Shown in pieces: positions 7,986 through 24,581 of a stretch of DNA of 64,000 bases. Source of the DNA: a virus. Positions within the stretch are counted from its first letter, which is position 1, and each line of letters opens with the position of its first letter. The stretch lies in IMG/VR virus record IMGVR_UViG_3300043444_000140, positions 1-64,000 of that record; one strand, written 5' to 3'. A model generated the notes under the pieces. That model worked only from the letters and a program-made list of their open reading frames with translations. It was not told the origin of the DNA and searched no databases. The position numbers and the translations under genes are program-made.

Positions 7986-8176
7986 AAGCCTTTCCGCTTG
8001 GACGAGAGTCGTTACGAGCACCTTTAACTTTTTTAGCCATACACAAATTATACCATAAACCAGGAGGGTATCATGGGAAGAATCATTGACATAGACGAAC
8101 TAATAGAAGAAGAACAGCCAGAGGAAGAACAACATCCACCAAAGATCTTTCGAGACATTGCACAGGCGGAATAGAC

Positions 8177-8374
8177 ATGGCAGGTAAGATAATCAAGATA
8201 GGCAATCCACACTACTGTGAGAAGCCTGATCTGTATAAATGGAGAAATCGTAAACTGCTAGAGGGAACTCAATGGCAGTGCGATGACTGCAACGATATCT
8301 ACGAGATAAAGAATAGTTACTATGCAGGATTCCATTGGGTAAAAATTTCGGGGAATTTAGAAGATGCTTCATAA
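8177..8374 (+). CDS. Small Zn-binding protein
   Basis: HxC...CxxC; last rightward gene before the non-coding block. Confidence 0.5.
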   Translation: MAGKIIKIGNPHYCEKPDLYKWRNRKLLEGTQWQCDDCNDIYEIKNSYYAGFHWVKISGNLEDAS

Positions 8375-9210
8375 TCCCTAGTATAAAATAAACCTAGTAG
8401 AAAGAATACACTTATATGGAATACATTGCTTTGGCTTTGATTGTTTTTGTATGTGCCTTTATAGGTTCATATCTGAGATAGTTATACACAGGATTTTGTC
8501 CAGAAATATCCCTGATTTCACAGAGTTATTAACAAGTTGCTAACAAGTTATCCACATAGTTATACACAGATTTATCCACAGAAATAGGGGAGTTATCCAC
8601 AAGTAAATCTTACTGATAATGATCGTCAATAGCGATATGAGAGATTTGGATATTGTTATTGGGTAATGGAGCCCATCATTAACAGGCTTCGTAATCATTT
8701 TCTCCCCAAATCCCCCTATCCAAATACCCAAATACCCCTATCACACATATCCAGATTTGTCAAGTATGCATAATATCCCTGATTTGTCAAGTCTTTTAGC
8801 CAAATTGTTATAAATCTTATTGATAATTATTTTCATTAACATCCCACAAATGTGGAAAAATATAGATGTTTCGTAATCTTTTTTATGAAAACATATCCAC
8901 ATTTTGGGGAAAAATAAATGACCATCGTAATGTCTTTATACTAGGGGTGTATTATATACTAGGGAGGATTCTTATCAAGAGATGTTATCCGTACCCTGGC
9001 TTCGCCAGCCCTTCGGGGGTATATAAAGAATGATCCCAATATCCCTAGTATAACAAATACCCTATATACAAATACAGCGTAGCCAGATATCCCTGATTTG
9101 GGGAAAAATAAACAGTGATCGTAATCTTTTTTTGATACTTGACAAATTGGGGAAAATATGATAGGGTTCGTAATCCCAATTTCGGGGAAAAATATTTAGA
9201 GGATCGTAAT
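8350..9210 (+). repeat. Non-coding block with six GGGG-N16-CRTAAT-type units plus ATATCC(C)TGATTT and TATACTAGGG repeats
   Basis: Units start at 8350, 8852, 8906, 9100, 9149, 9184; TATACTAGGG direct at ~8937, ~8955 and inverted at ~8376, ~9043. Confidence 0.8.
8482..8601 (+). promoter_or_regulatory. Cluster of co-oriented DnaA boxes
   Basis: TTATCCACA at 8548, 8572, 8593; TTATACACA at 8482, 8560; degenerate copies at 8526, 8537; 11-12 bp periodicity. Confidence 0.8.
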
Positions 9211-9292
9211 GATATTGTTATAAAAGATACTTGACATTTGGGATTTGGTGGATCGACCCACAGGGATCCCCCATGAGGGGACCACCTGATGT

Positions 9293-9862: not shown

Positions 9863-10049
9863 TGGTCAGTTCCTCTTCTTTCTCTGCCTGTGCTGCTTCC
9901 GCAATCATCATAAAGCGGTTGTAGATTACGGTTGGTGCTATTCGTGCTAGATAAATGCCTACTCTGTCTAAGTCAATCGTTAGGTGTCCAATCAGTTTGG
10001 TTATCGCATTTACAATCTTTTCTTCGTCTGTGGTTATTCTTCGTCTCAT
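9834..10049 (-). CDS. Hypothetical protein
   Basis: TTGACT-N17-TACAAT promoter, AGGA RBS. Confidence 0.6.
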   Translation of the reverse strand: MRRRITTDEEKIVNAITKLIGHLTIDLDRVGIYLARIAPTVIYNRFMMIAEAAQAEKEEELTNERQDTIYY

Positions 10050-10093
10050 TTGGTTTCCTATTCAGTTATACCGTTCCATTGTATCAAAAGTAA

Positions 10094-10210
10094 GGGGGCA
10101 AGTCAAGAGTAAGAAAGGTAACTCCTAACCTGCCCCCTGTGTAGTACGATAGTCAACCCCTTAACTATTTCCGTACTACTCTCCCTAGGAGCAATGCTCA
10201 ACCAGGGAAG
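10094..10210 (-). ncRNA. Three consecutive stem-loops (candidate structured 3'-UTR or sRNA)
   Basis: AGGGGGCA/TGCCCCCT, GTAGTACG/CGTACTAC, TCCCT/AGGGA stems. Confidence 0.45.
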
Positions 10211-10219
10211 TCTATTAAG

Positions 10220-10576
10220 TTAATCTTTGTACTTGGGGAATGATTCTAAGTATTGTTTAATACTGTCTGGCATTACGTCCCAATAATCCTTGAGGTACCC
10301 AGACATGCCGTACCATGCATCCCCACCTTCAAAGTACTCGTCGTTGTTGAGTCCTAGTGCACGAATTTCTTCAGCAGTCAACGATCGTGCCTCGCTAGCC
10401 TCCTCGTGTCCTGCATTCTCGTATGTGTACACGTGAATCATCCATGAGGTTGGGTCGTAGTACCATTCTCCAGTACGTGGGTCCTCCTCCTCACGCATGA
10501 AGATGTTAAGGTCGTAGTCGTACTCGGTCCTGCCTGCATTCCTGTTACGCAATGATGTCTGCATTGTCTTCTCCAT
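10220..10576 (-). CDS. Hypothetical acidic protein
   Basis: ORF in leftward operon; start probably at the second Met. Confidence 0.6.
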   Translation of the reverse strand: MEKTMQTSLRNRNAGRTEYDYDLNIFMREEEDPRTGEWYYDPTSWMIHVYTYENAGHEEASEARSLTAEEIRALGLNNDEYFEGGDAWYGMSGYLKDYWDVMPDSIKQYLESFPKYKD

Positions 10577-12242: not shown

Positions 12243-13366
12243 TTACAGGAATTCGAATGGGTCGGTATCACCGAAGTAGTCTTCGAAGTCTGCTAGGCTA
12301 GGGATGTTCTCCCCACCAAACAAATCATTCCAAACACTACCACCCTGACCATCTGCGTTCATCTCCTGACGCTCGTAGATGTCAAATGCGATTGGCTCAC
12401 TCATAGGTTTCCTCCTCAATTGGTGCGAACATCTGCTGTGCTCTGCGGTATGTCTTGTAGTCCCAAGTCTTTACGATTTCCCAGATACGTTCCATAGCAG
12501 CCTCTTGCTCTGCCAGTTTCTGCTCAATGGTTTCCATACTTTATCTTCCTATTCATCTTCTTGAACCAATTGTCATTTGCCATAGCCTCAATCCTATCAA
12601 ACTTGTCAATCATCTCTGAGAGGATATCTCGGTAGTAGTATGCCTGTTGCTGGTGAGTATAGTTCATATACTCTTCGTGTGCCTCGTTGCTAGCCATACT
12701 AGCATACTTAGCAATCCTTTTACTCTTCATCTTCATCTCCAAAGAAGTCAGCCCAGACATCTGTCTCCGTGACTCCGTCGCCATAGACTTCATCACGCAT
12801 ATATTCTAGGATATACTTTGCTCCCTCATTGAAAGCGTCTTGTTTTATTTTATCTAGTTCATTCATAGTATCTATTGTATCCTTACCTACTGACATTTAT
12901 TGTGTCCGATTCGTTTGTAGTAACTCTTCCATGTTTTGTAGCATTCCGTGCATTGGTATAAATCATAAGCAAGATCAGTTTTAATCTTCCTGGTTCGTAT
13001 CATTCATCATCCTTAGATAGTTCGTTGCCTGTTCGTGTTCCCATGGTTGGCAGGTTGGGCAATACTCTTGTTCTGCCTCGCAAATGTCGCAGAACGGATT
13101 ACAATCAAATGCTCCCTCGTGTCGGGGGCATACGATAGATTCGTGTTCAGTATTTAGGCATAGCATTAGCAAGAACCGTCATTTGGAATCTGGTCTTCTG
13201 GCACACCCATCATACGCAATACTGATTGGCTTCTTCCGATAAGACCCTCTAGGTAATCACCAAAGTTATCGTTGATGTCAAGACCCTCTTTCTCTTTTAT
13301 GAAAACCTTAGTATCCATAATTAGATAATCTATAATCTGTTGATTTGTCATTGGCTTGTCAGTCAT
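12243..13366 (-). other. Cluster of small leftward ORFs (e.g. 12243..12404, 12397..12537, 12981..13172, 13166..13366)
   Basis: Coupled starts/stops, RBSs, AATGTC-class promoters at 12892 and 13408. Confidence 0.55.
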
Positions 13367-13379
13367 TGTGGTTCCTTTC

Positions 13380-13796
13380 CTATGCGTCTATTGTATCTGA
13401 TACCACGGACATTGATTGGTCATACCCTCTAGCATAGTTCTGCCATAGAGCAAGGTTGTTCTCAAGGCGGTCTCCGAATACCCTCACAAAGTCAGCAAGG
13501 TCAATAGTCTTGTCAGAGATTAGAGGCTTCAGTTCCTCAATGGTGATGTCTTGGTATCCGCTGTTGAATTGACCTGCGTGGTAGTTTACAGGCACAAGTC
13601 CCTTGTCATCAGCAAACCAGCCAACGCCCTCGGAAACCACGGTAGCCAAACCATTCTTACCATTCACTACTACCATAGGTTCAGCAGTAATCTCTGTATC
13701 CTGATTAGAATAACGACTCTTGATAAGAGTAGCAGTCTTCTCTGGGTCTAGTAGGTGAACAATAGTTCCTTTTACACGGTTTTCATATCTTGACAT
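13380..13796 (-). CDS. Hypothetical protein
   Basis: AAAGGAG RBS, promoter at 13841. Confidence 0.7.
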   Translation of the reverse strand: MSRYENRVKGTIVHLLDPEKTATLIKSRYSNQDTEITAEPMVVVNGKNGLATVVSEGVGWFADDKGLVPVNYHAGQFNSGYQDITIEELKPLISDKTIDLADFVRVFGDRLENNLALWQNYARGYDQSMSVVSDTIDA

Positions 13797-14015
13797 TTTG
13801 TCTCCTTTGGGGTTGTGTATCTATTATACGGATACCCTCCGACATTTATAGGTAGCGACACGCCAGAAACTGGGAAAAATATCTGATCTTCGTAATTGAT
13901 TTTTAAATGATTGTATATCTTATTTGCATCGACACATCCCCTGGATCTTGTCAAGTCCCAAATTGGGATAAAGAAAAACCCTCACCGTTTCCAGTGAGGG
14001 CTAATCATTTTTGCT

Positions 14016-15032
14016 TTACGCCATTACGACAGACTGAACAATCTTCATCAGGCGGTTCTTCTCAGCGTTGATTACAGGGTCAAAGCCAGAAGCCGAAGCA
14101 TAAATGCTTTCGTTGTTTCCGCCACGAGAGTTGCGATACCAGTCTAGGCGTTCGGTTAGAGCGTTGTATGCTCCCCAAGCAGTTCCTGAAATGGTGTTGT
14201 TGAATTGTCCAACATAAATGTCGTTGAGCAAGTCAATCTTGCTGTCATACTTCTTGACAGAACCCTTAGCATCTTTTTCTGGGGCAGGGTAGGCAAGTTC
14301 AACAATCTTGTCAAAGTCAGCCTTAGTGATTTCTTTTTCAATCATAGCGTTAGCCATAAGTGAGAACTCGTCAATGTAAGTCTTAGCCAAGCCAAGAGCC
14401 TCACGAGCAACCGCAATCTTACCCTCAGCAGTCTGAGTGTGTCGGATTTTGAAAGTTTGCTTGACAGACTTCTTGCCCTTGAAAGCAGATAGAGCAAGGT
14501 TGAGAGTGTTAGCACAAACAACACGAACAGGCGTGATACTTGCCTGAATAGCAATAGAGCCATCGTGGCTAGTGTTGATTAGCAGGTAGTTGTCAATCTT
14601 GTCAGCACGACCATTAGGGTCTAGGGTAATGCTGTCTTGTAGAGCGATAGAGCCAAACACGACACGACCGTTCTTGATAGAGCCAGCAGTTTCCCAACGA
14701 CCGCCACCGTCTAGCAGGTTGTCACCAAATGAGAACAAGTCCTCGTTCTGAAGTGGAACATAACGCTCACCAACAACGCCAAGAACATCATTCTGGCTAC
14801 GGTCAAATGGGTTAGTTCGGGTAACGAATGAGTAAGACTTGTCAGATGAAAAGCCGTCTGGCAATGATACGTCCTCAAGGCGAACATTCCAATCGTTCAA
14901 GTGAGCAAGCGACAACATCTCGCTAGTGTTTACCTCGTTCTCGAATACGGTTCCGAGGTTGTGCCAAGCAGGCTGGCGGAGAGAAGCGAAAGCAACTTCG
15001 CCGTTCTGTCCGATTTCTAGGTCGTGAGCCAT
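14016..15032 (-). CDS. DUF932 / TIGR03299-family protein
   Basis: PAWHNLG, LGVVGERYVPLQN, ETAGS, SHDGS, TPVRVVCANT, IRHT, GTAWGAYNA motifs; AGAAAGG RBS; terminator at ~13977-14000. Confidence 0.9.
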   Translation of the reverse strand: MAHDLEIGQNGEVAFASLRQPAWHNLGTVFENEVNTSEMLSLAHLNDWNVRLEDVSLPDGFSSDKSYSFVTRTNPFDRSQNDVLGVVGERYVPLQNEDLFSFGDNLLDGGGRWETAGSIKNGRVVFGSIALQDSITLDPNGRADKIDNYLLINTSHDGSIAIQASITPVRVVCANTLNLALSAFKGKKSVKQTFKIRHTQTAEGKIAVAREALGLAKTYIDEFSLMANAMIEKEITKADFDKIVELAYPAPEKDAKGSVKKYDSKIDLLNDIYVGQFNNTISGTAWGAYNALTERLDWYRNSRGGNNESIYASASGFDPVINAEKNRLMKIVQSVVMA

Positions 15033-15182
15033 AAGGTTCACCTTTCTGTTAGTGGGGATTTCTGATAAGTCTATTATCCCAAATAAACATAAGTTTGTCA
15101 ATACTATTTGGGAAAAACTTTTGGCGTGTCGTAAACCCGATCTTAATCCAATGTCAGGGGCTGGGGGTCGATCCCCGAAGGG

Positions 15183-15213
15183 AGGCAGTTTACGTAGACA
15201 TGCCTAGGTCGTT
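15183..15213 (-). ncRNA. H-type pseudoknot copy 1
   Basis: GAC CU AGGCA U GUC UACGU AAAC UGCCU. Confidence 0.55.
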
Positions 15214-15244
15214 TGCACAGGGGGTAAAGAAAGGTTAAGAACCC

Positions 15245-15670
15245 CTATGCATCCTTACTCCAGATAATGTCGGTCTGGAAGTCACTGATAGTGCTGTGGG
15301 TAACCTCAAAGTCAAAGTCCCACTCTGGGTCTGGTTCCTCGCCAATCTCGTACTCAACATCAATGGTGAAGGTAACATTAACCTCAACCTGCTTGGTCTT
15401 GGTTAGTTCAACGCCCAACTGCTCCGCAATGTACTTGACAGTGTCCTCGTCGTGGTCCTCAAGTGCCTCAACAAGTACAGTCTTGACTTTGGCTTCGTAT
15501 GCCCACTTCTCATTGCGAATGCGGTTGATAGTTTCAATACGTTGTGAATCTAGTTCAAGACCCTTCGCAACTTTTGATTCAAGGTCAGCAATCTTCTCGT
15601 TCAACTGCTGTAGTACAGGGTGGGTGTTAGGGACGTAGTCGCCAACAGTTCCAGTAATCATTTCATCCAT
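15245..15670 (-). CDS. Hypothetical coiled-coil/acidic protein
   Basis: Promoter at 15718, AGAAAG RBS. Confidence 0.7.
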   Translation of the reverse strand: MDEMITGTVGDYVPNTHPVLQQLNEKIADLESKVAKGLELDSQRIETINRIRNEKWAYEAKVKTVLVEALEDHDEDTVKYIAEQLGVELTKTKQVEVNVTFTIDVEYEIGEEPDPEWDFDFEVTHSTISDFQTDIIWSKDA

Positions 15671-15721
15671 GGGTTCTTCTTTCTTTTGGTTAGGGTCTAA
15701 TTATACAGTGGGGGTCAGACA

Positions 15722-15949
15722 TTATGGCTTGTAGTCTAGAAGAATGTCTTGTGGGACTTCTCTGCCATACTCCCAGATAAGGCTCTCGTCAGCCCAATCG
15801 CCCTCGTCGCTAGGGTTGCCGTCTTCGTCTAGGTATCCCCATTCCTTAGCAATCTCTTCGGGTAGGTCATCAGTGTCAAGAACAAATAGTGAACGCTTGG
15901 TCTCAAAACGCCACCAGTCGCCATTCTCGTTTGCGATAAAAATTGCCAT
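15722..15949 (-). CDS. Hypothetical acidic protein
   Basis: AGAAAGGA RBS before MAIFIA; promoter at 15996. Confidence 0.65.
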   Translation of the reverse strand: MAIFIANENGDWWRFETKRSLFVLDTDDLPEEIAKEWGYLDEDGNPSDEGDWADESLIWEYGREVPQDILLDYKP

Positions 15950-16109
15950 TAGTTGTTCCTTTCTTTGCGATGTATCTATTATGCCATAGCCCTCCGACAT
16001 TTTGGGGATTTCGTAAGGTGTGTCGTAATTGAAATCGTCGATACCACCAGGATCATCGACCCCGAACCACCACAAAAGTCAAGCCTGGTTTTTGACTAAT
16101 GTGGTGTGG

Positions 16110-16139
16110 TGAGCCGTTTAGACACTTGCTCAGGTGTTT
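16110..16139 (-). ncRNA. H-type pseudoknot copy 2
   Basis: ACAC CU GAGCA A GUGU CU AAAC GGCUC. Confidence 0.55.
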
Positions 16140-16157
16140 AGGCGTAAGCCTATGGTT

Positions 16158-16607
16158 TTACAGCAAGTCCATTACAGACGAGTAGGTAGAAGCATTTACT
16201 TCTTCCTGCTGGGTCAGTTTGAGAACACGCAAGGTCTTCTCCAACATCTCCAAAGGTGTCGCATACTCACGACCAAATGAACGGCGAGAGTTCTGGTCTT
16301 CTGGCTTCTTTGGTGCGTCAGGGAAACCAAGTGCTACTCGGTCAATGCGAACATCAACAGAGTTGTTGTAGTCATTAGCAGACACACGAATAGGGTTGTC
16401 GTAGTTGTCGCCAACCAACTCAGGGTTCTCGGTTAGAGCCTTGATAGTTAGAGCAACAAGAGACTTCTTGTATGCGTTGTGGTCTGCTTCATACTGCTTT
16501 ACCAAAGCAGGGTAGTTAGCGGTTGCTTCCTTGATACCAGCAATCTTCTCTTCTACAAGAGCGATTAGAGATGCGGTTGGAACTTTTACAGCCAATGAAC
16601 GAGCCAT
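16158..16607 (-). CDS. Hypothetical protein
   Basis: Promoter at 16668, AGAAAG RBS. Confidence 0.75.
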   Translation of the reverse strand: MARSLAVKVPTASLIALVEEKIAGIKEATANYPALVKQYEADHNAYKKSLVALTIKALTENPELVGDNYDNPIRVSANDYNNSVDVRIDRVALGFPDAPKKPEDQNSRRSFGREYATPLEMLEKTLRVLKLTQQEEVNASTYSSVMDLL

Positions 16608-16752
16608 TAGTTTTCTTCTTTCTTTTAGGGGTTGTTTTGTTATGTGTCTATTGTAGCAATAGCCACCGACATTATACGATTACTCAGGGGCAAGCATTTC
16701 TAGAATACCTACCTCCAAGCAAAAGGGATTAGTTAGACATTTCCATAGTGTG

Positions 16753-16789
16753 TGAGCAGTTTTTTCACAAAGACATACTCAGGTCTTTT
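16753..16789 (-). ncRNA. H-type pseudoknot copy 3
   Basis: AAAGAC CU GAGUA U GUCUUU GUGAAA AAAC UGCUC. Confidence 0.55.
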
Positions 16790-16805
16790 GCCTACTGAAA
16801 GGCTA

Positions 16806-16961
16806 TTACTTTACAGTAGTCCAGCGGTCTTGACCATTTACATCAAGACGAACACGGAACGAACCTGTCTTGTTTGCGATTACTTCCTGAACGATACCAA
16901 CGATACCTGCTCGCTGAGTGGTGAACTGCGAGCCAACAGTAGGGGCGATTACATTTGCCAT
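16806..16961 (-). CDS. 51-aa beta-rich protein (not in ORF track)
   Basis: MANVIAPTVGSQFTTQRAGIVG...RWTTVK; AAAGGA RBS; TTGACT-N17-GAAAAT promoter. Confidence 0.65.
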   Translation of the reverse strand: MANVIAPTVGSQFTTQRAGIVGIVQEVIANKTGSFRVRLDVNGQDRWTTVK

Positions 16962-17302
16962 TTATTGCTTCCTTTGTTTGTAGTTATTATCAACTTTTGC
17001 TGATACTCTATTTTCCCATAGTTGGAAGTGAAAGTCAAGCATTTTCTCAATCTTTTTGTAAAAAGTTTTTATTTATTTCTTGCTCATTTCCAACTACTAA
17101 TAGTATAAGGGTAGCCTCCGACATTTTAGGGATTTGGCACGGCGTGTCGTAAAAAGATCTCGTAAGGTGTTCTAATGTCGGGGGTGGGGGTCGATCCCCT
17201 TTCGGGGTAGGTGATCAGTTATTGCTCAATAATAAACCAGATTATGATAGCGACTATGATTATTCCTATTGCAGTTTCCATACTCTATTATCCCATATCC
17301 CC

Positions 17303-18022
17303 CTACTTTTTACTAGCACTGAATAAAATGTCGTTGCGAGCAAACACACACTGCGAGCAAGCAACACAAGCAGAACCGTTAGTTGAAATCAAAGGCAACT
17401 TGCGATTGTTTTCAGGGCAGGGGATAGCAGACTTATCCTGAATAGTTTTGAAATCTGCCTTGCCTGTAGCAAAGTCTTTAGCAAGATAAGCCAACTTCAC
17501 GTCATACTGTTGCTTCAACTCAAAGCCCAATTCCTTGTTTGCTTCATCAGTTGAAAAGTAAAGTGATAGGTTGTCAATGTTGTTTAGCAACGGAATGGCA
17601 AAATCGCTTCGGGTGTATGCCCAAAATTGAACGGTAGAGTGTTTGCGAATAACATCTGCCCACGCATTAGTGTAATCAACGTTAAAGAAATCGCCGTCCC
17701 AGTGAATACGGAACAACTTTTCGGCATTACGCTTGTCACACTCGGCAACAAATTCGGTAATCATCTCGTCAATGAGGTTATACATCGTTAGGTAATCAGC
17801 GTCTTTGACTTGGTCCCAATTCTTAGTCAACACTTCACGAACGCCCTTGAATACTCGCTCAAGGTTTCCAGCGTAGCAAATCTTTTCACATACTGTGGTT
17901 GCTCCAGGGCATGAGTAAGCCTTACCACTAGGCAAGCCAAAAGTGTTAGCCATACTCGCTTGAGTGCCAGACTTGTTTACTTGGTTTGCTACCTTACGGT
18001 CTTTGCTCCTGATAAGTGCCAT
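17303..18022 (-). CDS. gp88-family (radical-SAM-like Cys motif) protein
   Basis: FGLP...CPGAT..C..ICYA, FRIHWDGDF, FWAYTRS, C-terminal CP...CxxCxxC. Confidence 0.75.
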   Translation of the reverse strand: MALIRSKDRKVANQVNKSGTQASMANTFGLPSGKAYSCPGATTVCEKICYAGNLERVFKGVREVLTKNWDQVKDADYLTMYNLIDEMITEFVAECDKRNAEKLFRIHWDGDFFNVDYTNAWADVIRKHSTVQFWAYTRSDFAIPLLNNIDNLSLYFSTDEANKELGFELKQQYDVKLAYLAKDFATGKADFKTIQDKSAIPCPENNRKLPLISTNGSACVACSQCVFARNDILFSASKK

Positions 18023-18141
18023 TGGGGTCTGCCTTTCTTAGTAGTTCTATTTTACAACTGACCACCGACATTTTGGGGATATTCTTAATCGTGTCGTAAA
18101 TTGATCTTGCACGGAGGGGGTCGACCCCGAAGGGGAGAGGA

Positions 18142-18462
18142 TTACTCCTCGTCCTCCTCGTAGTCGTCAACTAGCCAAGCGTCAAGGTGAGCGTGTTCAA
18201 TAACTGCCCAAGCAGGTGCGTGGTCTGAACCATCACGCCACCTAATCTGGAATGGCTCTCCGTTGCGGTCTACTCCGTCAAACGGTAGTTTGATTAGACG
18301 GTTAGTGTCGTCTTCCCAATAAGCGTCAATAGCCTCAACACAAACTGGAATCATCGCCTGTGGAATTGGTGGATAGTGATTAGCCGATAGGTGAATTGAT
18401 AGTTGTTGCTCTAGCGTAACGTCAAGGTTAGTTGCTAGGTCTAGTGCGGTCATTGCTCCCAT
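18142..18462 (-). CDS. Hypothetical protein
   Basis: HL..NHYPP motif; RBS and promoter at 18511. Confidence 0.7.
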   Translation of the reverse strand: MGAMTALDLATNLDVTLEQQLSIHLSANHYPPIPQAMIPVCVEAIDAYWEDDTNRLIKLPFDGVDRNGEPFQIRWRDGSDHAPAWAVIEHAHLDAWLVDDYEEDEE

Positions 18463-18515
18463 GGTGTTGCCTTTCTTTTGTTTGATAAGTCTATTTTACT
18501 TCAAGCCTCAGACAT

Positions 18516-18959
18516 TTAGTCTTCGTCTTCTTGTGCGTCATCGTAGCAGTCACGACACATCTCGTCATCGTAGACATCGTCATCGCCACACTTCTCGCAA
18601 CGCTCTGTCTGACAGTCCCATCCATCGCAACTTTCTTCGCCACATTCAAGGCACTCGTCAAACTCCCTAGCACCTTGCTCAATCAAAGTTTCAAAGCCCT
18701 CGTTAGGGTCAATACCCTCGGCGGTAGTGGAAACGGCTTCAACAAACTTCAAGCCACAACTCTCGGCATACCAGTGCTTGATAGTTTCATACATCTCACC
18801 AGCAGACATCTCGTCTTTGGTGTATAGAGGGTCATACTCATATTCACGCATTTTGACAACTTGTTCGTCATCCATCAAGACATAGATTTTGTGGCAGGTA
18901 TCAAAGGCAATAGCCTTAGCGTCTTCCATCTTGTCCCAGACTAGTCCCCAGTCAATCAT
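18516..18959 (-). CDS. Hypothetical protein with C-terminal Zn-finger repeats
   Basis: Several CxxC; AAGGAG RBS. Confidence 0.7.
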   Translation of the reverse strand: MIDWGLVWDKMEDAKAIAFDTCHKIYVLMDDEQVVKMREYEYDPLYTKDEMSAGEMYETIKHWYAESCGLKFVEAVSTTAEGIDPNEGFETLIEQGAREFDECLECGEESCDGWDCQTERCEKCGDDDVYDDEMCRDCYDDAQEDED

Positions 18960-19144
18960 TAGTTGCTCTCCTTGTTGTCTAGAATGTCTGCTACTTCATT
19001 TACGCCATCAACTTTGCCAACGGCATAGGCATAGTCAAAGATTTGACGGAAATTTACAATTGTGTAAATAGAAACATCGTGCTTCTCTGCCAACTCCTGA
19101 ATAGGGTTGTAGTAGTTCCAAAACTCTTGCTCTCGCTTGTCCAT
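18959..19144 (-). CDS. Hypothetical protein
   Basis: AGAAAGGA RBS, promoter at 19187. Confidence 0.65.
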   Translation of the reverse strand: MDKREQEFWNYYNPIQELAEKHDVSIYTIVNFRQIFDYAYAVGKVDGVNEVADILDNKESN

Positions 19145-21704
19145 AGTTATCCTTTCTTAGATACTTACATTATAGGGTGAGCCACCGACATTATAGGTGC
19201 TCGGCGATAGCCTTACGCTTGTTAGACTGACGGCTACCCTTGCGAGTAGCAGGTGTTTCTACTAGGTGTGGTGATAGCATTAGCGAACGGAATAGTTCGG
19301 CTGAGTGTGCCTTGCGGATAGCGTTGTTGATTTTGCTCATTGGCTTCTTTGTTTTCTTCATAGGATTATTATACAGGACACCTCAGACATTTAGGGGATT
19401 TGTTTCGGCGTGTCTTAATTTGATTCGTAAATGATTGGGCAGGAGGGGGAGGGTCGATCCCCGAAGGGATGGGACTAGAAGTCATCTCCATAGTAGCCGT
19501 AGTCCTCGTCAGTTCCCCAACCAGCAGAGGCTAGGGCATCGCCATCCATCCAGTCGCCATCCTCCTCAAAGGTGTCCTCCACCTCTGGGCAGTCGTTCTG
19601 GTCGTGTCCGCAGCAAGGGTAGTCTTCGCACATAGTTTTCCTTTCGTTGATAAAGCAATACTAACAGACGCTACCGACATTTTGGGGAAGATCTTTAGCG
19701 TGTCTTAATTTGATCTGGATCCTGGATCGGATCGACCCCGAAGGGTCTAGAATGGTGGAGCGTTGTCTGCTTCGCCCTGGCGGTATCCCCAGGTCTTGCC
19801 TAGGCGGTATGCGAAATAAACCAACACAATGTCAATCAAAAGATTGAAGCCGTTATAGAACATCATCAGTATCCTGCTTTCTCAAAAATTGCCAGTAGTT
19901 CTTCAAGGGTTGATTCTGGTAAAGCGTCAATCGCTTCTTCGTTGATTACATTCTCAAACATTTTCTTCAACTGCCTTTCTCTGGTAGTAGTCAATCCAAG
20001 AAACGATTTCTTCTCTTGGAACCATTCCCCAAACCATAGCGTCAAGGTATGATTGGAAATAAGGTGAGCGTTCGTCAACAGCGTCTTCGGCAGGGGTGTT
20101 GCGGTTGTAGTGAGCAAGGGCAAGAGCCTTGAATTGCTGTTCTAGTTCATACTTGTTCATTGTATGCCTTTCTTTGTTTGATAAGACTATTATAGAGTGA
20201 GCCACCGACATTTATTTTTCGGGGATTACAAAATGCTCATAAGCAAACTCAACATACTCTTTGTGGTAAAAGGTATCAAAAATAGTTAGCAGGTTGCCAA
20301 TACGGAATAGGCGAGGGTCGCCGTTAGGGTCATCAGTGCTTCCCGAGATACCTGCCAACTCAATTTCTTTCATTAGGTCTAGGATTTCGGTTTTTAGTGC
20401 TTCTAGTTTTTCGTTCATAGGATAATTATACAGACAGCCACCGACATTGATTGGCAAGACACGCCGATCTTTTGGGAAATTTTTTGGGAGATTTTTAATG
20501 CGGTACGTAAAGTCCATGGCAGGCGGTCGATCCGATCATCGACCCGATCCACCGACATTTGTCAAGTCGGTTTCTCGGCGTGTCGCTAGAACGGCGGTTG
20601 CAAACTTTCGTTTTCTTCTTCTAGTTCCCGAATGTTTTTTAGCAACACTACAACGGTAGCAGTTAGGCTTAGAACCATTACCAAACTAGCGAGAGCGAAG
20701 ATTGAGAAAATCAAAAATGTTTCGTTCATTAGTTGCCTGCCTTGTCTGCGAATACTGCGTCAATAAAACGCTGGTGAGAAAATCTTGGGTTGTCGTTCTC
20801 AAACATCTGTGCGAACTTGTCCGCAATGTCTGCGAGAATGATGAAGTCAATTTCATCAACCTTGCTGTTTAGAATGTTTGCGGTTTCTACGTAGTCTTTG
20901 CGTGTCATCATTTTTCTGTCCTTTGCTTGTTTTTGATTTTATTTTACTTTATGCCACAGACATTTTGTGGTCTGCGGTAAAGGTGAAGTAGCCCTCAAAG
21001 CGTGGGCTTGGGATTTTGTGAAGAAACTCTGGCTTGTCCCAAATGTTCTTGGCAATCAAGCCGAGTTCGCCACAAGTTGGGCAAGGGGTTAGTTCGTTAT
21101 CTGGATACATTTTCATTTCCTGTTCTTTGTTTGTTAGTTCTATCTTAGGGGAAGCCACCGACATTTTAGCGGTAGCCGTGTCCTAGGTAGTCTGCCCATT
21201 CGTTAGGGTCAAGTTCTAGGTAAGTGATAGCAGAACCCAAAGGCATCAAGCCCTTGTAGTCATTACACTCGTGGCAGACAAAAGTTCCGTTCTCGAAAAC
21301 GGTCTCACAAAATACACACATTAGTTTCATAGTTTTCCTTTCTTGATAATTCTATTTTAGACTAAGCCACCGACATTTAGACTTTGCCACCCATTGACTT
21401 GACTACTCGCATTAGCAAAGTGAGTTCACGCTCAAACTTTGGGTCTAGGTCTTGGTCAGCGTCAAGGGTAGCCATAGCAATTTCCACCATAGCGTTGTAT
21501 TCTGCTTGGAGGGTTGGGAGGTCCATTGGAGTCTTGTTCATTAGTTTACCTTTCTTTCTACTCTTATTATGGCATAGCCCACCGACATTTTAAGGACATT
21601 TTGGGGTGTTTTGGAAAAGATTAACTAGGTTAACATTTCCTGTGAATTTGATCGTTTTTGCATCTCGGGCGTGTCGGGGATCCGATCTTAAGCGTCTTAA
21701 AAAG

Positions 21705-21725
21705 TTATCCACAGAGTTATCCACA
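21705..21725 (+). promoter_or_regulatory. Pair of perfect DnaA boxes
   Basis: TTATCCACA at 21705 and 21717. Confidence 0.75.
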
Positions 21726-22227
21726 GGATCGACACAGATCCAGGCGGATGTCAAGACGACACGCCGATTAGCAGTGGATTTCTAGAATCTCTGCTATCTC
21801 TGAGGCGGTACGAGCGTACACCTCTTCATTACACTCAGGGCAGTAGCCTGAGTAGAAGCGGTCATCCCAGTGTAGAGGGACAATCTGACCATTGGTTAGT
21901 GAAACAATCATTCTGTTTCCTTTCTTTTATCTTGTTATTATCTTAGCATTAGGGGCGGACACTCGGTTAGTTTTTTGCTAACCAAGCAACGCAACCTTCG
22001 CAGGTCTTTACATTTTCTTCATAGATGTTGCCTTCGCAAACATCGCAGTGAGTGAACGGAATGTATAGAACCTTTCCGTTGTAGTATACCTTTTTTCCTT
22101 TTTTTAGTTCAGTCATTTTGACTTCCTTTCTTTTATCTATATATATCTAAACACATACCACCGACATTGTCAACCCGACACGCCGTGTTTTGGGGGAAAT
22201 TTTTTAAGCGTTATAAATCTGTTATAT

Positions 22228-22243
22228 TCGAACATCTGTTCGG
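22228..22243. promoter_or_regulatory. LexA (SOS) box
   Basis: TCGAAC-ATCT-GTTCGG vs actinobacterial TCGAAC-N4-GTTCGA. Confidence 0.7.
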
Positions 22244-23868
22244 ATCATCGACGCACTCGGGCGTGTCGGATCTCGGGCGTGTCGCTAACGTGTCTTGGTT
22301 AGCATTAGGGTCAAGTAGCGGTCCTGATTTTCTTTTGATAGCGTTGCCCAAGCCTTGCGGTCAAGGTAACGCTGTCCATTGCGAATTTCAGGGGTAGCGA
22401 ATACGATAGCGTTAGCCCAAGCCATGAAAGCCTTTTCGCTTCGGGTCATTCTTGCTTTTCTCATTAGTTAGCCTTTCTTAGTAGTTTTATTTTAGCCTAG
22501 CCCACCGACATTAATCAAGGGGCTTGCGTAGTCCTTGTTCCAGGAAGCGGTCAAAGTGCATTTTCTTTTCTGCCATAGCAGATACAAACTTTACACCGTT
22601 AGCCTTAGCGAAGAAGTCAATTGCAGGGTGTCCATACCAAGCAACCTGCACACCACGATAGACAGTGCCGTCCTCGGTCTTACCCGATACTACCCATTCA
22701 ATTCCTTTTGACATTAGTTGTCCTTTCTTTCTATTACTAACTTAGCAGGTGCTACCGACATTTATTAGATGTCGCAACCAATGCTAGCGTGGCAGTAGAT
22801 ACAAACCTCTTCGCCACAGCGTCCGCATTCGTCCTGTGGAGTGTGAGTATCGCAGATGTCGCAGTAGCCTAGGTCTTCTGCGTAGTATTCTTTTTGAGTG
22901 TTCATCTTGAACCTTTCTTTCTTTATCTACTATTACATTAGCACCCCCCACCGACATTTAAGTGTAAGACACGCCAATAAAATGGGGAAATTTATAACGT
23001 TCTTATAACGCCCCTGGATCCCTTATAAACAAAGGGCTGTAGAGGGGATCGACCCCCTTTCGGGGATCTTGTCAAGTCCTTACATCAACTTGTCTAGTAG
23101 GCGAGAAAACTGAGGGTAGAAAGCAAGGATTACAGCAAGCACAAAGCCAATCTGTGAACCAATAAAAAAGGTTTCACTAATTGTTTGGCTAGGCTCTGCC
23201 CCTAGCAGTAGCAGGGTAAGGTATAGGAACACATACGCACCAGCAACAAACGGAATAGATACAATGCCAAGGATTGCTCTACGGATTACATACTTCATTA
23301 TTATTTCCCTTCTTGTGAAAAGTCTACATCATCAATGAGCATTATGTCAATAAGCCCAATTAGGTATTCTAGTTCTTGAGTGTCCATTATTGATTAATTA
23401 AGATTACTAACGTTATAGCAATTATAAGCAGGGCTACAGACATTTAGATGATAGCCCATCCTGTTATCTGTCCTTTTTCATACATAGACTTGTAGAACTT
23501 TAGGACCTCTGCCTTGTGCTGTGGGTCATATGAGGGGTAGATTGTGGTACCGTCCTTGAGGATGATTTCTAGGTTCATGAGTGTTACCTTTCTTAGTTGT
23601 TATTAGTGTACAGTAGGGGTCAGACATTGAGTCTAGTGAATCTCACCATACTCTGACCAGCAGATTTCACAACCATACTCGCCAGCCTCCTTTACGAAGA
23701 CCTTTTCTACTACTACATCACATAGTTCACAAACTGAAAACATTTGTTACCTTTCTTTCTTTTATCTATTTATCTTTATATATATATCTAACCATAGACC
23801 ACTGACAAAGTCAAGACGACACGCCGATGATCTGGGAAATATTTTAACCCGTTATAAGATCGTTATAT

Positions 23869-23884
23869 TAGAACAAATGTTCGA
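23869..23884. promoter_or_regulatory. LexA (SOS) box between divergent promoters
   Basis: TAGAAC-AAAT-GTTCGA. Confidence 0.7.
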
Positions 23885-23988
23885 ATGCGTCGATGTCGTT
23901 ATCAATTCGTTATCAAACAATGGCGTGTCGCTATACAAATGTCTGTCGGGTGTGCTAATGTATTTATATCAAGAGATAAGGACAGAAG

Positions 23989-24255
23989 ATGTTTGTAGCA
24001 GAGATTTTCAACGTAGTAGTTGTAGAAGAAGTAGAAGATGGCGAAGTGTATGAATACACTCGCATTGAAGATGATTTCTCAATGTTTTTCGACATCAAGG
24101 CAGATGCAGAGATGTGGCTTGCAACTGCACCACAAACTGAAAAGCACCTAATGGAAGTGCAAAGCACTTGCGGTTGCCTAGAAGATGGCGACAAGGTTGA
24201 ATTGGTTATGAACTTTGGCGACCACGCTGTTGCTTACTGCCACCCTTGCTCATAG
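23989..24255 (+). CDS. Hypothetical acidic protein
   Basis: Rightward AATGTC promoter at 23938, AAGGA RBS. Confidence 0.65.
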   Translation: MFVAEIFNVVVVEEVEDGEVYEYTRIEDDFSMFFDIKADAEMWLATAPQTEKHLMEVQSTCGCLEDGDKVELVMNFGDHAVAYCHPCS

Positions 24256-24308
24256 GCAATTGTCGGCGGTATCAACTAAAATAAAAGCAATTAGAGATAG
24301 GAAATAGA

Positions 24309-24398
24309 ATGAACGGATACACTTATGACGAGCAGTTTGACACTAGCGACAGCACTTGCCCAGACTGCTACAAGTCTTATTCGCAATGCGATTGCTAG
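24309..24398 (+). CDS. 29-aa Zn-finger micropeptide
   Basis: MNGYTYDEQFDTSDSTCPDCYKSYSQCDC; own promoter and AGGA RBS. Confidence 0.55.
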   Translation: MNGYTYDEQFDTSDSTCPDCYKSYSQCDC

Positions 24399-24581
24399 GG
24401 GGCACTACCCCTATCAGTCTTTTTATTCTTGATGGGGGCACCAGGGGATCCCTGATCACTTGACAATGTGTGCTCACTATGTTATTATGTTATATTTTTG
24501 TAGAGCCTGTATCATACATCTTTACAAAATATTCAGATTTTTGTCAATTTGAAAATTTTTTCAGATTTGCCAGATATGAAT

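What the first reader, a model, noticed from the sequence alone, without database searches (positions are those of the whole stretch)
13000..24460. GATC is excluded from early genes but concentrated in the spacers
Seen: by eye I count 33 GATC between 13.0 and 24.5 kb, all intergenic (five within 19690-19733, five within 21650-21740, four within 20466-20549). None falls in roughly 9 kb of coding sequence, while GATC is common in late genes. Most spacers also hold a quasi-palindromic GGRTCGAYCC-type core in either orientation (9251, 12221, 15165, 16055, 17189, 18119, 19452, 19730, 20525, 23047). Inference: simple restriction avoidance would remove sites everywhere, so their retention between autonomous transcription units suggests a function. 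Options are restriction/methylase decoys where cutting leaves each unit intact, a methylation readout, or programmed nick/recombination sites.
Basis: partly seen in the sequence, partly recalled or inferred. Interest (0 to 1): 0.82.

Follow-up and report, generated by a model that had tools for sequence, protein, structure and literature searches.

The report
GATC kept only between early genes
In this lake phage of actinobacteria, the early genes have lost nearly all short restriction-type palindromes, yet GATC piles up in the gaps between them, which suggests that breaks or binding there are tolerated or even used.

Summary
Window 13,000-24,460 holds 33 GATC. None lies in 7.9 kb of early coding DNA, where a codon-preserving shuffle expects 27.1 +/- 4.0. 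Spacers hold 31 against 11.9 +/- 3.1 expected. Late genes are at expectation (O/E 1.0).

It is one part of a larger pattern:
- The 107-kb genome has no AGCT, CCGG, CGCG, GCGC or GGCC at all.
- The early block is also depleted for 14 of the 16 four-base palindromes, and for GCNGC, GGNCC, GTNAC and GANTC.
- Within the block, the purge covers whole transcription units, from core promoter to stop codon.
- The gaps between units lack only the five genome-wide banned words. They hold other palindromes near expectation, and GATC at 2.9-fold excess.

Relatives agree. In 65 related contigs that carry GATC, the gaps are 2.2-fold enriched and early genes hold 0.24 of expectation. Fifteen relatives have no GATC. 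Other lineages keep a different spacer-only palindrome (GTAC, GCGC, CGCG, ACGT or CCGG).

About 27 early promoters match the actinobacterial PafBC type, which single-stranded DNA switches on.

My best reading is restriction avoidance whose cost depends on position, in a leading module like the T5 first-step-transfer region. The surplus GATC may serve as break points that supply PafBC with single-stranded DNA. That last step is inference.

The scan noted the same GATC/AGCT pattern in another genome (e1-5991097).

The parts
12870..24460 (-). Early block of about 30-35 small leftward genes. Most have their own promoter. The block is purged of nearly all four-base palindromes.
   Evidence: Gene calls; palindrome statistics.
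13885..13947 (.). GATC pair (13885, 13944) in the gap downstream of the DUF932 gene.
15139..15173 (.). GATC pair. The one at 15170 lies inside a C4-TTCG-G4-ATCGA-C4 element. The one at 15139 sits 8 nt before a TTACGACACGCC box.
17156..17216 (.). Three GATC (17156, 17193, 17213) around a CCCC-GAAA-GGGG hairpin and a TTACGACACGCC box.
19690..19733 (.). Cluster of five GATC directly after an ACCC-TTCG-GGGT hairpin. The GATCC/GGATC arms can form a second stem.
20466..20549 (.). Four GATC between inverted CGACACGCC / GGCGTGTC boxes.
21650..21740 (.). Five GATC flanking two tandem DnaA-box consensus sites (TTATCCACA at 21705 and 21717), bracketed by inverted GGCGTGTCG / CGACACGCC boxes.
22243..22272 (.). 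GATC pair next to two direct CGACACGCC boxes.
23017..23068 (.). Three GATC in and around a GATCCCC-GAAA-GGGGGTC hairpin and a GGGATCGACCC core.
23829..23861 (.). GATC pair in the divergent control region at the upstream end of the block.
12874..23626 (-). Array of about 27 PafBC-type promoters (tGTCgg-N10-tA-N3-T), each just upstream of an early gene. The spans from promoter to stop codon contain no GATC.
   Evidence: 36 matches in the window against 10.7 +/- 3.5 expected. Consensus from PMC8635444. for the GATC-free spans.
14016..15032 (-). DUF932-family early gene, used as the anchor for finding relatives. Its homologue lies in the 11-kb terminal repeat of Streptomyces BE1 phages.
   Evidence: PMC5764925.
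17303..18022 (-). GP88-family early gene, also homologous to a gene in the terminal repeat of phage Peebs.
8175..9292 (.). A 1.1-kb non-coding region at the downstream edge of the leftward block. It holds three DnaA-box consensus sites, repeated GATTACGA-N12-14-TTTTTCCCC units and 7 GATC.

Best explanation
The block at 13-24.5 kb is the phage's leading, host-takeover module. It corresponds to the terminal-repeat gene block of Streptomyces BE1 phages, and in its logic it resembles the first-step-transfer region of T5.

This DNA is exposed to host restriction enzymes before the early anti-defence proteins exist. Every early transcription unit, from the core promoter to the stop codon, has therefore been cleared of short palindromes.

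The cost of a site depends on where it lies. A site inside a unit stops an early gene from being expressed. A site in the gap between two self-contained units does not. The gaps therefore lack only the five palindromes that are banned genome-wide. I take those five to be targets of enzymes the phage cannot neutralise. The gaps hold the other palindromes at about chance level.

GATC goes further and is kept at 2-3 times chance in the gaps. The early promoters are of the PafBC type, which the host switches on only when single-stranded DNA is present. I therefore propose that the surplus GATC are break or nick points. A hit by a host GATC enzyme there would leave all units intact and, after end resection, supply the single-stranded DNA that fires these promoters.

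Shown: the redistribution of GATC, the split between units and gaps, the same pattern across the family, and the promoter type.
Inferred: that this DNA enters first, that the late DNA is protected by early proteins, and that breaks at GATC feed PafBC.
For: - Early CDS hold 0 GATC against 27.1 +/- 4.0 expected. Late CDS have O/E 1.0.
- 14 of the 16 four-base palindromes are depleted in early CDS only. So are GCNGC, GGNCC, GTNAC and GANTC.
- In a k-mer ranking of early CDS, 13 of the 15 most depleted four-base words are palindromes. This points to an agent that acts on DNA, of the restriction type.
- Five palindromes are absent from all 107 kb.
- In this genome's gaps, GATC is 20 against 6.8 expected, and the five banned words are 0 against 14.1. 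ACGT, CATG, GTAC, TGCA and TTAA are near expectation. Promoter and 5'UTR segments hold 0 GATC against 2.8.
- Across the family, gaps hold 305 GATC against 137 expected. GATC is the only palindrome above 1.2. Unit segments hold 5 against 60, and early CDS have O/E 0.24.
- Over 305 spacers, no GATC lies between -10 and +45 of the promoter motif (about 60 expected). Density is 8-16 per kb between -35 and -110.
- The enrichment survives a shuffle that also excludes all banned words.
- GATC flanks show no longer consensus. Individual sites turn over: 43-63% are conserved, against a 36-42% background. So density is maintained, not a particular longer motif.
- Fifteen relatives and Streptomyces phage Peebs lack GATC entirely, so enzymes directed at GATC act on this phage family.
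- The promoters match tGTCgg-N10-tA-N3-T (PMC8635444). PafBC requires single-stranded DNA, for example from resection at double-strand breaks (PMC11804915).
- In T5-like and T7-like phages, restriction acts only through sites in the leading region (PMC10644984, PMC12455610).
- The DUF932 and GP88 genes lie in the terminal repeat of BE1 phages (PMC5764925).
Against: - Nothing shows that this block enters first or is a terminal repeat in this phage. The record is a collapsed linear assembly.
- No anti-restriction gene was identified among the early proteins. Most have no family match.
- Relative G003 keeps 15 GCGC in its early spacers although GCGC is almost absent from its late genes (O/E 0.02). 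This does not fit the rule that only sites of enzymes the phage can neutralise are tolerated in gaps.
- The depletion in promoter and 5'UTR segments may partly reflect their conserved consensus sequence.
- Relatives without GATC keep the same promoter and spacer layout. GATC is therefore dispensable.
- A cut in incoming DNA is normally lethal. Repair from a second repeat copy is assumed, not shown.
- The relatives are not independent samples.
Confidence: 0.35

Rival explanations
1. Incidental constraint. The GATC are parts of the spacers' regulatory or structural elements: the C4-tetraloop-G4-core-C4 element, the TTACGA and CGACACGCC boxes, and hairpin stems. They cannot be removed without loss of function. 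They are a costly leftover of the purge, not something selected for its own sake.
For: - 7 of the 33 GATC lie in the GG(A)TCGA(T)CC element, which occurs only in early spacers.
- At three orthologous spacers, the close relative L001 has GTGCGC where this genome has GATCGA. This genome bans GCGC, so the core looks like a replacement forced by that ban.
- Four GATC sit at a fixed 8-nt distance from a TTACGACACG box.
- Other lineages carry a different palindrome in the same element (GTAC, CGCG, ACGT).
- Relatives without GATC keep the same architecture.
Against: - About 26 of the 33 GATC lie outside that element, in varied contexts with no flank consensus.
- Only 17% of TTACGAC boxes in relatives carry the GATC.
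- Sites are barely more conserved than the background, yet their density stays high in 55 of 65 loci.
- The two palindromes most completely purged from early CDS (GATC at 0, TCGA at 0.06) include the one most enriched in spacers. This is the opposite of what a choice of low-cost words would give.
Confidence: 0.25
2. Methylation readout. A host GATC methyltransferase, either an orphan enzyme or part of a restriction system, marks the spacer sites on parental DNA. Methylated and newly replicated unmethylated spacers then differ in promoter or terminator activity, which would time the shut-off of early genes.
For: GATC clusters lie 35-110 nt upstream of promoters, next to operator-like boxes and DnaA-box consensus sites. 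Density is maintained rather than exact position. Methylation-sensitive GATC clusters are known in Dam-positive systems such as oriC, P1 pac and Mu mom (established knowledge).
Against: - The phage encodes no D12, N6_N4 or C5 methyltransferase.
- The host is an actinobacterium, given the WhiB gene and the PafBC-type promoters. This group generally lacks Dam, SeqA and MutH (established knowledge).
- GATC never overlaps a core promoter.
- The idea does not explain why GATC must be absent from early coding DNA.
Confidence: 0.1
3. RNA-level selection. An endoribonuclease active early in infection cuts GAUC. Early mRNAs therefore avoid it, while GAUC in read-through spacer RNA acts as a processing site that leaves mRNA 3' ends protected by hairpins. 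This would resemble RNase III processing of T7 early RNA, or RegB in T4.
For: GATC is missing from exactly the transcribed part of each unit. Seven or eight sites sit directly 3' of UUCG or GAAA tetraloop hairpins that lack a U-tract, so these hairpins look like stabilisers rather than terminators.
Against: - The depleted words in early genes are almost all palindromes (13 of the top 15). That is the signature of enzymes that read DNA.
- Whole-genome GATC bans in relatives show selection on GATC at the DNA level.
- I know of no GAUC-specific RNase.
- Late mRNAs are full of GAUC.
- My crude comparison of hairpin and terminator counts found no difference between relatives with and without GATC.
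Confidence: 0.08
4. Roadblock or regulator. A protein that binds GATC organises or insulates the early promoters from upstream. The same sites inside units would block RNA polymerase and are therefore removed. The protein could be from the host or the phage.
For: GATC are enriched upstream of promoters and absent from -10 of the promoter motif (about -40 relative to the inferred transcription start) to the stop codon. Inverted CGACACGCC boxes bracket several clusters, which suggests DNA looping.
Against: A four-base site with no flank preference, irregular spacing and rapid turnover is a poor operator. No candidate protein was found. Relatives without GATC manage without such sites.
Confidence: 0.07

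Closest known systems
First-step-transfer (terminal-repeat, pre-early) region of T5/BF23, and the leading region of Autographiviridae
   Same: Restriction acts on these phages only through sites in the DNA that enters first, so that region is cleared of sites while the rest of the genome keeps them (PMC10644984, PMC12455610). Here the early block is cleared of at least 14 palindromes while late genes are not. T5 has a non-coding border region rich in repeats and DnaA boxes. This phage has something similar at 8175-9292.
   Different: First entry and two-step injection are not shown for this phage. The purge here covers almost the whole four-base palindrome vocabulary. It distinguishes transcription units from the gaps between them, and one palindrome is enriched in the gaps. 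I found no such pattern reported for T5.
Terminal-repeat gene block of Streptomyces cluster BE1 phages (Stanwilliamsviridae, e.g. Peebs)
   Same: Both have a run of 20-25 small leftward genes next to a syntenic structural module. The DUF932 and GP88 homologues appear in the same order, and the portal proteins are 47-49% identical (PMC5764925).
   Different: Peebs has no GATC at all in its first 50 kb. It does not avoid the other palindromes, and it has no array of PafBC-type promoters.
PafBC-dependent (RecA-NDp) promoters of mycobacteria and other actinobacteria
   Same: The consensus is tGTCgg-N10-tA-N3-T, with a -26 element in place of a -35 element (PMC8635444). About 27 copies drive the early genes here.
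   Different: These are phage promoters. Dependence on PafBC is untested, and some copies also carry a TTGACA -35 hexamer. No GATC link has been described for host PafBC promoters, as far as my searches show.
Promoter-plus-stem-loop early cassettes of T4-type phages, and the SPO1 host-takeover module
   Same: Many tiny early genes, each with its own promoter and a hairpin, in a region whose gene content varies greatly between relatives. This comparison rests on my own knowledge of those systems.
   Different: Those cassettes are not known to be defined by the presence or absence of restriction-type palindromes.
Dam-controlled GATC clusters (oriC/SeqA, P1 pac, Mu mom, IS10)
   Same: Local clusters of GATC in non-coding control DNA, in one case next to DnaA-box consensus sites (21650-21740).
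   Different: The phage has no Dam-type methylase. The host is an actinobacterium. GATC never overlaps a core promoter.

Membership tests
T5-type leading-region restriction-site avoidance | Recognition sites are absent from the early or leading region but present at normal frequency in the rest of the genome. | tested here: met
   Early CDS O/E: GATC 0, TCGA 0.06, TTAA 0.09, CATG 0.17, TGCA 0.22, GTAC 0.28, ACGT 0.29. Late CDS O/E is about 0.7-1.3, except TCGA at 0.4.
T5-type leading-region restriction-site avoidance | The region is a direct terminal repeat that is injected first. | not testable with these tools
   The only evidence is homology of two genes to the BE1 terminal repeat (PMC5764925). 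The record is a collapsed linear assembly with no read data.
T5-type leading-region restriction-site avoidance | The region encodes host-takeover or anti-restriction functions. | tested here: inconclusive
   Only DUF932 and GP88 were recognised. Eight other early proteins matched no Pfam or PHROG family.
PafBC-dependent (RecA-NDp) promoters | The sequence tGTCgg-N10-tA-N3-T upstream of the gene. | tested here: met
   36 matches with at most 1 mismatch, against 10.7 +/- 3.5 expected. 27 of them are on the early strand between 12.87 and 23.63 kb. Consensus from PMC8635444.
PafBC-dependent (RecA-NDp) promoters | Transcription requires PafBC together with single-stranded DNA. | not testable with these tools
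   This needs in vitro transcription or a pafBC mutant host.
Dam/SeqA-type GATC methylation control | A GATC adenine methyltransferase encoded by the phage or the host. | tested here: not met
   The phage has no match to PF02086, PF01555 or PF00145. The host is unknown but actinobacterial.
Dam/SeqA-type GATC methylation control | GATC overlaps the promoter hexamers or a regulator site whose binding is sensitive to methylation. | tested here: not met
   No GATC lies between -10 and +45 of the promoter motif in 305 spacers.
Programmed nicks of T5-like virion DNA | Site-specific single-strand interruptions in packaged DNA. | not testable with these tools
   This requires virion DNA. No MutH/Sau3AI-like or DpnII-like gene was found in the phage.
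Intrinsic terminators | A GC-rich stem followed by a U-tract. | tested here: not met
   The spacer hairpins have 4-7 bp stems with UUCG or GAAA loops and no T-run. Only one canonical terminator was found, at 14002-13977.

The most novel reading that the evidence does not exclude
The phage turns restriction into a start signal. The inter-unit gaps of the leading module display sites for host restriction enzymes, GATC here and other palindromes in sister lineages. The self-contained early units around them carry none. A cut at a gap leaves every unit intact. Resection of the new ends then produces single-stranded DNA, which activates the host factor PafBC and so fires the roughly 27 PafBC-type early promoters. 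An attack by the host's defence would thus trigger the phage's takeover and anti-defence programme. The damaged repeat copy would later be restored from the second copy.
Probability: 0.15. Interest if true: 0.9.

Novelty: new variant of a known kind. Interest (0 to 1): 0.66.

Why it matters
Avoidance of restriction sites is usually treated as a genome-wide count. Recent work shows that only the first-injected region matters for some phages.

This genome and about 65 relatives add a finer rule. Within the leading region, selection appears to protect transcription units rather than the DNA as a whole. One restriction-type word is actively kept in the gaps, next to promoters that respond to single-stranded DNA.

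If breaks there are tolerated or used, three things follow:
- Predictions of phage sensitivity to restriction from sequence would need to take position into account.
- The many autonomous mini-operons in phage takeover modules would have a rationale.
- Restriction and the actinobacterial DNA-damage response would be linked.

The lineage-specific sets of banned palindromes (at least 24 combinations in 80 loci) are also a readable record of the restriction enzymes met by uncultured lake actinobacteria.

Tried and rejected
- **Chance or codon usage.** Rejected by the codon-preserving shuffle and two kinds of spacer shuffle.
- **Side effect of banning other words.** A shuffle that also excluded all banned words did not raise the expected GATC count.
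- **GATC as part of one longer recognition site.** Flanks of one base and of +/-8 bases show no consensus. CGATCC and GGATCC are only mildly favoured.
- **Strong conservation of individual sites.** Not seen: 6 of 14 sites are conserved against L001 and 12 of 19 against L004, where 36-42% is expected from background identity.
- **GATC-bearing spacers as preferred recombination joints.** Gene presence and absence changes just as often across 1-bp junctions, so the test was uninformative.
- **Relatives without GATC using canonical terminators instead.** My crude scan found no difference.
- **Spacer hairpins as unusually stable structures.** Z-scores against shuffles were not significant, ranging from -2.3 to +0.7.
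- **A phage-encoded Dam, N6/N4 or C5 methylase, or a MutH/Sau3AI-like or DpnII-like nuclease.** None was found.
- **Host assignment from MAG bins.** Seven hits were scattered over unrelated taxa, probably from mis-binning.
- **DNA similarity to named phages.** None was found at megablast level.
- **PafBC-type promoters in Streptomyces phage Peebs.** Not enriched.


Full report
**What the window is**

The window is the first 64 kb of a 107,035-bp virus record that CheckV rates 99% complete. G+C content is 42.5%. No named phage matches at the DNA level.

At the protein level, the closest named relatives are Streptomyces cluster BE1 phages:
- The portal, protease, capsid and tail genes are syntenic with theirs, and the portal proteins are 47-49% identical.
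- Two genes of the block under study have homologues in the same order inside the roughly 11-kb direct terminal repeat of phage Peebs. These are the DUF932 gene at 14016-15032 and the GP88-family gene at 17303-18022 (PMC5764925).

The genome encodes a WhiB protein, and its early promoters are of an actinobacterial type (see below). The host is therefore almost certainly an actinobacterium. The IMG/VR collection holds 414 related contigs, and I fetched 80 of them as loci.

**Checking the observation**

I called genes with a codon-usage score. On those calls, none of the 33 lies in the 7,939 bp of coding DNA and all lie in the 3,522 bp of spacers. Coding DNA elsewhere has 3.5 GATC per kb.

| Test | Expected | Observed |
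|---|---|---|
| Codon-preserving shuffle, 30 early genes | 27.1 +/- 4.0 (min 17 of 300) | 0 |
| Late coding DNA | O/E 1.07 and 0.99 | |
| Dinucleotide shuffle, early spacers | 11.9 +/- 3.1 (max 22 of 500) | 31 |
| Same, with all banned words also excluded | 12.6 +/- 3.2 (max 21) | 30 |

Both halves of the observation are real. The early block as a whole has about as many GATC as chance predicts. They have been moved out of the genes and into the spacers.

**The larger pattern**

GATC is not alone.
- The whole genome contains no AGCT, CCGG, CGCG, GCGC or GGCC. Each would be expected 226-399 times.
- In the early genes, 14 of the 16 four-base palindromes are depleted: TCGA 0.06, TTAA 0.09, CATG 0.17, ATAT and TGCA 0.22, GTAC 0.28, ACGT 0.29. 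Only CTAG is at 1.0. In late genes these words are near expectation, except TCGA at 0.4.
- The interrupted palindromes GCNGC, GGNCC, CCNGG, GTNAC and GANTC show the same early-only depletion. GCNGC, GGNCC, GTNAC and GANTC are also depleted in the spacers.
- Of the 15 most depleted four-base words in early genes, 13 are palindromes. This is the signature of enzymes that read double-stranded DNA, not of RNA-level selection.

A depletion confined to the early or leading block matches what is known for T5-like phages and some T7-like phages. In those, restriction acts only through sites in the first-injected DNA (PMC10644984, PMC12455610).

**Anatomy of the spacers**

Read in the direction of transcription (minus strand), a long spacer holds the following, in order:
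1. A short hairpin (CCCC-TTCG/GAAA-GGGG) without a T-run, usually followed by (A)TCGA(T)CCCC.
2. A variable stretch with TTACGA and CGACACGCC boxes. The CGACACGCC box occurs 11 times in both orientations, only in this block.
3. A TTTCCCC tract.
4. The promoter ATGTCGGTGG-N8-TATAAT.
5. The ribosome-binding site AAGAAAGG.

Short spacers of 46-55 bp hold only the promoter and leader, and they carry no GATC.

A note from another window of this scan pointed out that this promoter has the PafBC type. I checked this against the literature. The published consensus is tGTCgg-N10-tA-N3-T, with a -26 element replacing the -35 element (PMC8635444). It matches 36 times in the window against 10.7 +/- 3.5 expected. 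Of these, 27 are on the early strand, just upstream of early genes. PafBC activates transcription only when it binds single-stranded DNA, such as arises from resection at double-strand breaks (PMC11804915).

**Units versus gaps**

I split each spacer at 10 nt upstream of the promoter motif into a gap (upstream part) and a unit part (promoter and leader). Counts are observed against expected.

| | This genome: gap | This genome: unit part | Family: gap | Family: unit part |
|---|---|---|---|---|
| GATC | 20 / 6.8 | 0 / 2.8 | 305 / 137 (O/E 2.23) | 5 / 60 |
| Five genome-wide banned words | 0 / 14.1 | | | |
| ACGT, CATG, GTAC, TGCA, TTAA | near expectation | | | |

In the family (60 non-redundant relatives that carry GATC), GATC is the only palindrome above 1.2 in the gaps.

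Further family results:
- Early coding DNA has GATC at O/E 0.24. Early spacers have more GATC than expected in 55 of 65 loci.
- Over 305 spacers, not one GATC lies between -10 and +45 of the promoter motif, where about 60 are expected. Density is 8-16 per kb from -35 to -110.
- From the coordinates, a complete GATC digest of 13-24 kb would give 12 fragments. Each would carry one to five intact genes and at least one promoter.

The selection therefore separates self-contained transcription units from the DNA between them.

**Is GATC itself the unit of selection?**

- The flanks show no consensus.
- Only 7 of the 33 GATC lie in the GG(A)TCGA(T)CC element.
- Only 17% of TTACGAC boxes in relatives carry a GATC at the fixed offset.
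- Individual sites are conserved at 43-63% against the two closest relatives, where background identity predicts 36-42%.

Density is kept. Position and context are not.

GATC is also dispensable. Fifteen of the 80 loci have none yet keep the same promoters and boxes. Streptomyces phage Peebs has none in 50 kb.

**Family-wide palindrome bans and spacer-only palindromes**

The 80 loci show at least 24 different combinations of totally absent palindromes.

In several lineages a palindrome that is purged from genes survives only in the early spacers. It often sits in the same G-tract/core/C-tract element that follows the hairpin.

| Record | Palindrome | Early CDS (obs / exp) | Early spacers | Other CDS O/E |
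|---|---|---|---|---|
| G001 | GTAC | 0 / 41 | 17 | 0.30 |
| G002 | CGCG | 0 / 12 | 9 | 0.11 |
| G003 | GCGC | 0 / 17 | 15 | 0.02 |

ACGT and CCGG behave this way in other lineages.

Where this genome has GGGGATCGACCCC, the close relative L001 has GGGTGCGCCCCCC at three orthologous spacers. This genome bans GCGC, so part of its GATC and TCGA excess replaces a banned core.

**Interpretation**

The data require that the cost of a site depends on its position. A model in which every site is equally lethal cannot explain a complete purge of 27 expected sites from genes while 33 remain a few dozen bases away.

The most economical reading uses the agent already evident in this family, restriction enzymes. 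It has three steps:
- Before the early proteins act, the leading DNA is exposed.
- A cut inside a unit stops an early gene from being expressed.
- A cut between units does not, and it could be repaired from a second repeat copy.

Words banned genome-wide would then mark enzymes the phage cannot neutralise, and these are banned in the gaps too.

The surplus of GATC needs a positive reason. The promoters respond to single-stranded DNA, so break points that supply such DNA are an attractive candidate. This step is inference.

The reading has weaknesses:
- First entry, the terminal repeat and anti-restriction genes are not demonstrated.
- GCGC in G003 breaks the rule about enzymes the phage can neutralise.
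- Part of the depletion in promoter and leader segments may come from their conserved consensus.

The rivals are incidental motif constraint, a methylation readout, RNA-level selection and a GATC-binding roadblock protein. Each explains some features and fails on others, as set out in their entries. No methylase or GATC nuclease gene was found in the phage.

**Verdict**

The finding is real, statistically strong and shared by a large family of uncultured lake phages.
- The purge itself is a known kind of thing, restriction avoidance in a leading region. Here it is carried to an extreme and resolved to the level of transcription units.
- The retained and enriched GATC between units, next to PafBC-type promoters, is not something I could find described.
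- Its mechanism remains open.

The scan noted the same GATC/AGCT pattern in another genome (e1-5991097). It has also noted the PafBC-type promoter arrays many times.

Noticed in passing
whole genome (window 1-64000 and beyond): AGCT, CCGG, CGCG, GCGC and GGCC are completely absent from all 107,035 bases, in coding and non-coding DNA alike. Each would be expected 226-399 times.
   Followed up: yes
L001-L080 (IMG/VR relatives): The phage family shows at least 24 different combinations of totally absent four-base palindromes. CCGG and CGCG are missing almost everywhere, while AGCT, GCGC, GGCC, GATC, GTAC, CATG and TCGA are missing in particular lineages. This looks like a record of differing host restriction enzymes.
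   Followed up: partly
L003/G001, L007/G002, L018/G003, L054, L064: The conserved spacer element C4-tetraloop-G4-core-C4 carries a core that differs by lineage (GTAC, CGCG, GCGC, ACGT, CCGG). In each case the core is a palindrome otherwise purged from that lineage's genes. The core is uniform within a genome but differs between close relatives.
   Followed up: partly
window 12874-23626, minus strand: About 27 early promoters match the PafBC (RecA-NDp) consensus tGTCgg-N10-tA-N3-T. Several begin directly at the stop codon of the preceding gene (TAA-ATGTCGG).
   Followed up: yes
window 8548-8601 and 21705-21725: Five perfect DnaA-box consensus sites (TTATCCACA) occur in two intergenic clusters. 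About one would be expected in the whole genome. The second cluster lies among five GATC.
   Followed up: no
window 8175-9292: A 1.1-kb non-coding region holds about six repeats of GATTACGA-N12-14-TTTTTCCCC plus DnaA-box consensus sites. It recalls the repeat-rich border of the T5 first-step-transfer region.
   Followed up: no
window 13856-23930: The box CGACACGCC / GGCGTGTCG occurs 11 times, only in early spacers and in both orientations. Copies often bracket a spacer as an inverted pair or abut the promoter. It is probably an operator for an unknown regulator.
   Followed up: partly
window 10000-10500 and 15000-15500: Two short stretches inside the purged zone have normal or high palindrome density (29 and 14 counted words per 500 bp, against 0-8 in most neighbouring 500-bp bins). 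They may be recent insertions.
   Followed up: no
L090 (Streptomyces phage Peebs, 1-50000): Peebs has no GATC in its first 50 kb but normal levels of the other palindromes. It has no enrichment of PafBC-type promoters.
   Followed up: partly
G000:C1:98416-98589: A WhiB-family gene (50.6 bits) lies outside the window. It supports an actinobacterial host.
   Followed up: no
window 19000-24000: Most of the tiny early genes here have homologues in only 0-6 of the 80 related loci. Gene content changes even across 1-bp gene junctions, so this is a hyper-variable region.
   Followed up: partly
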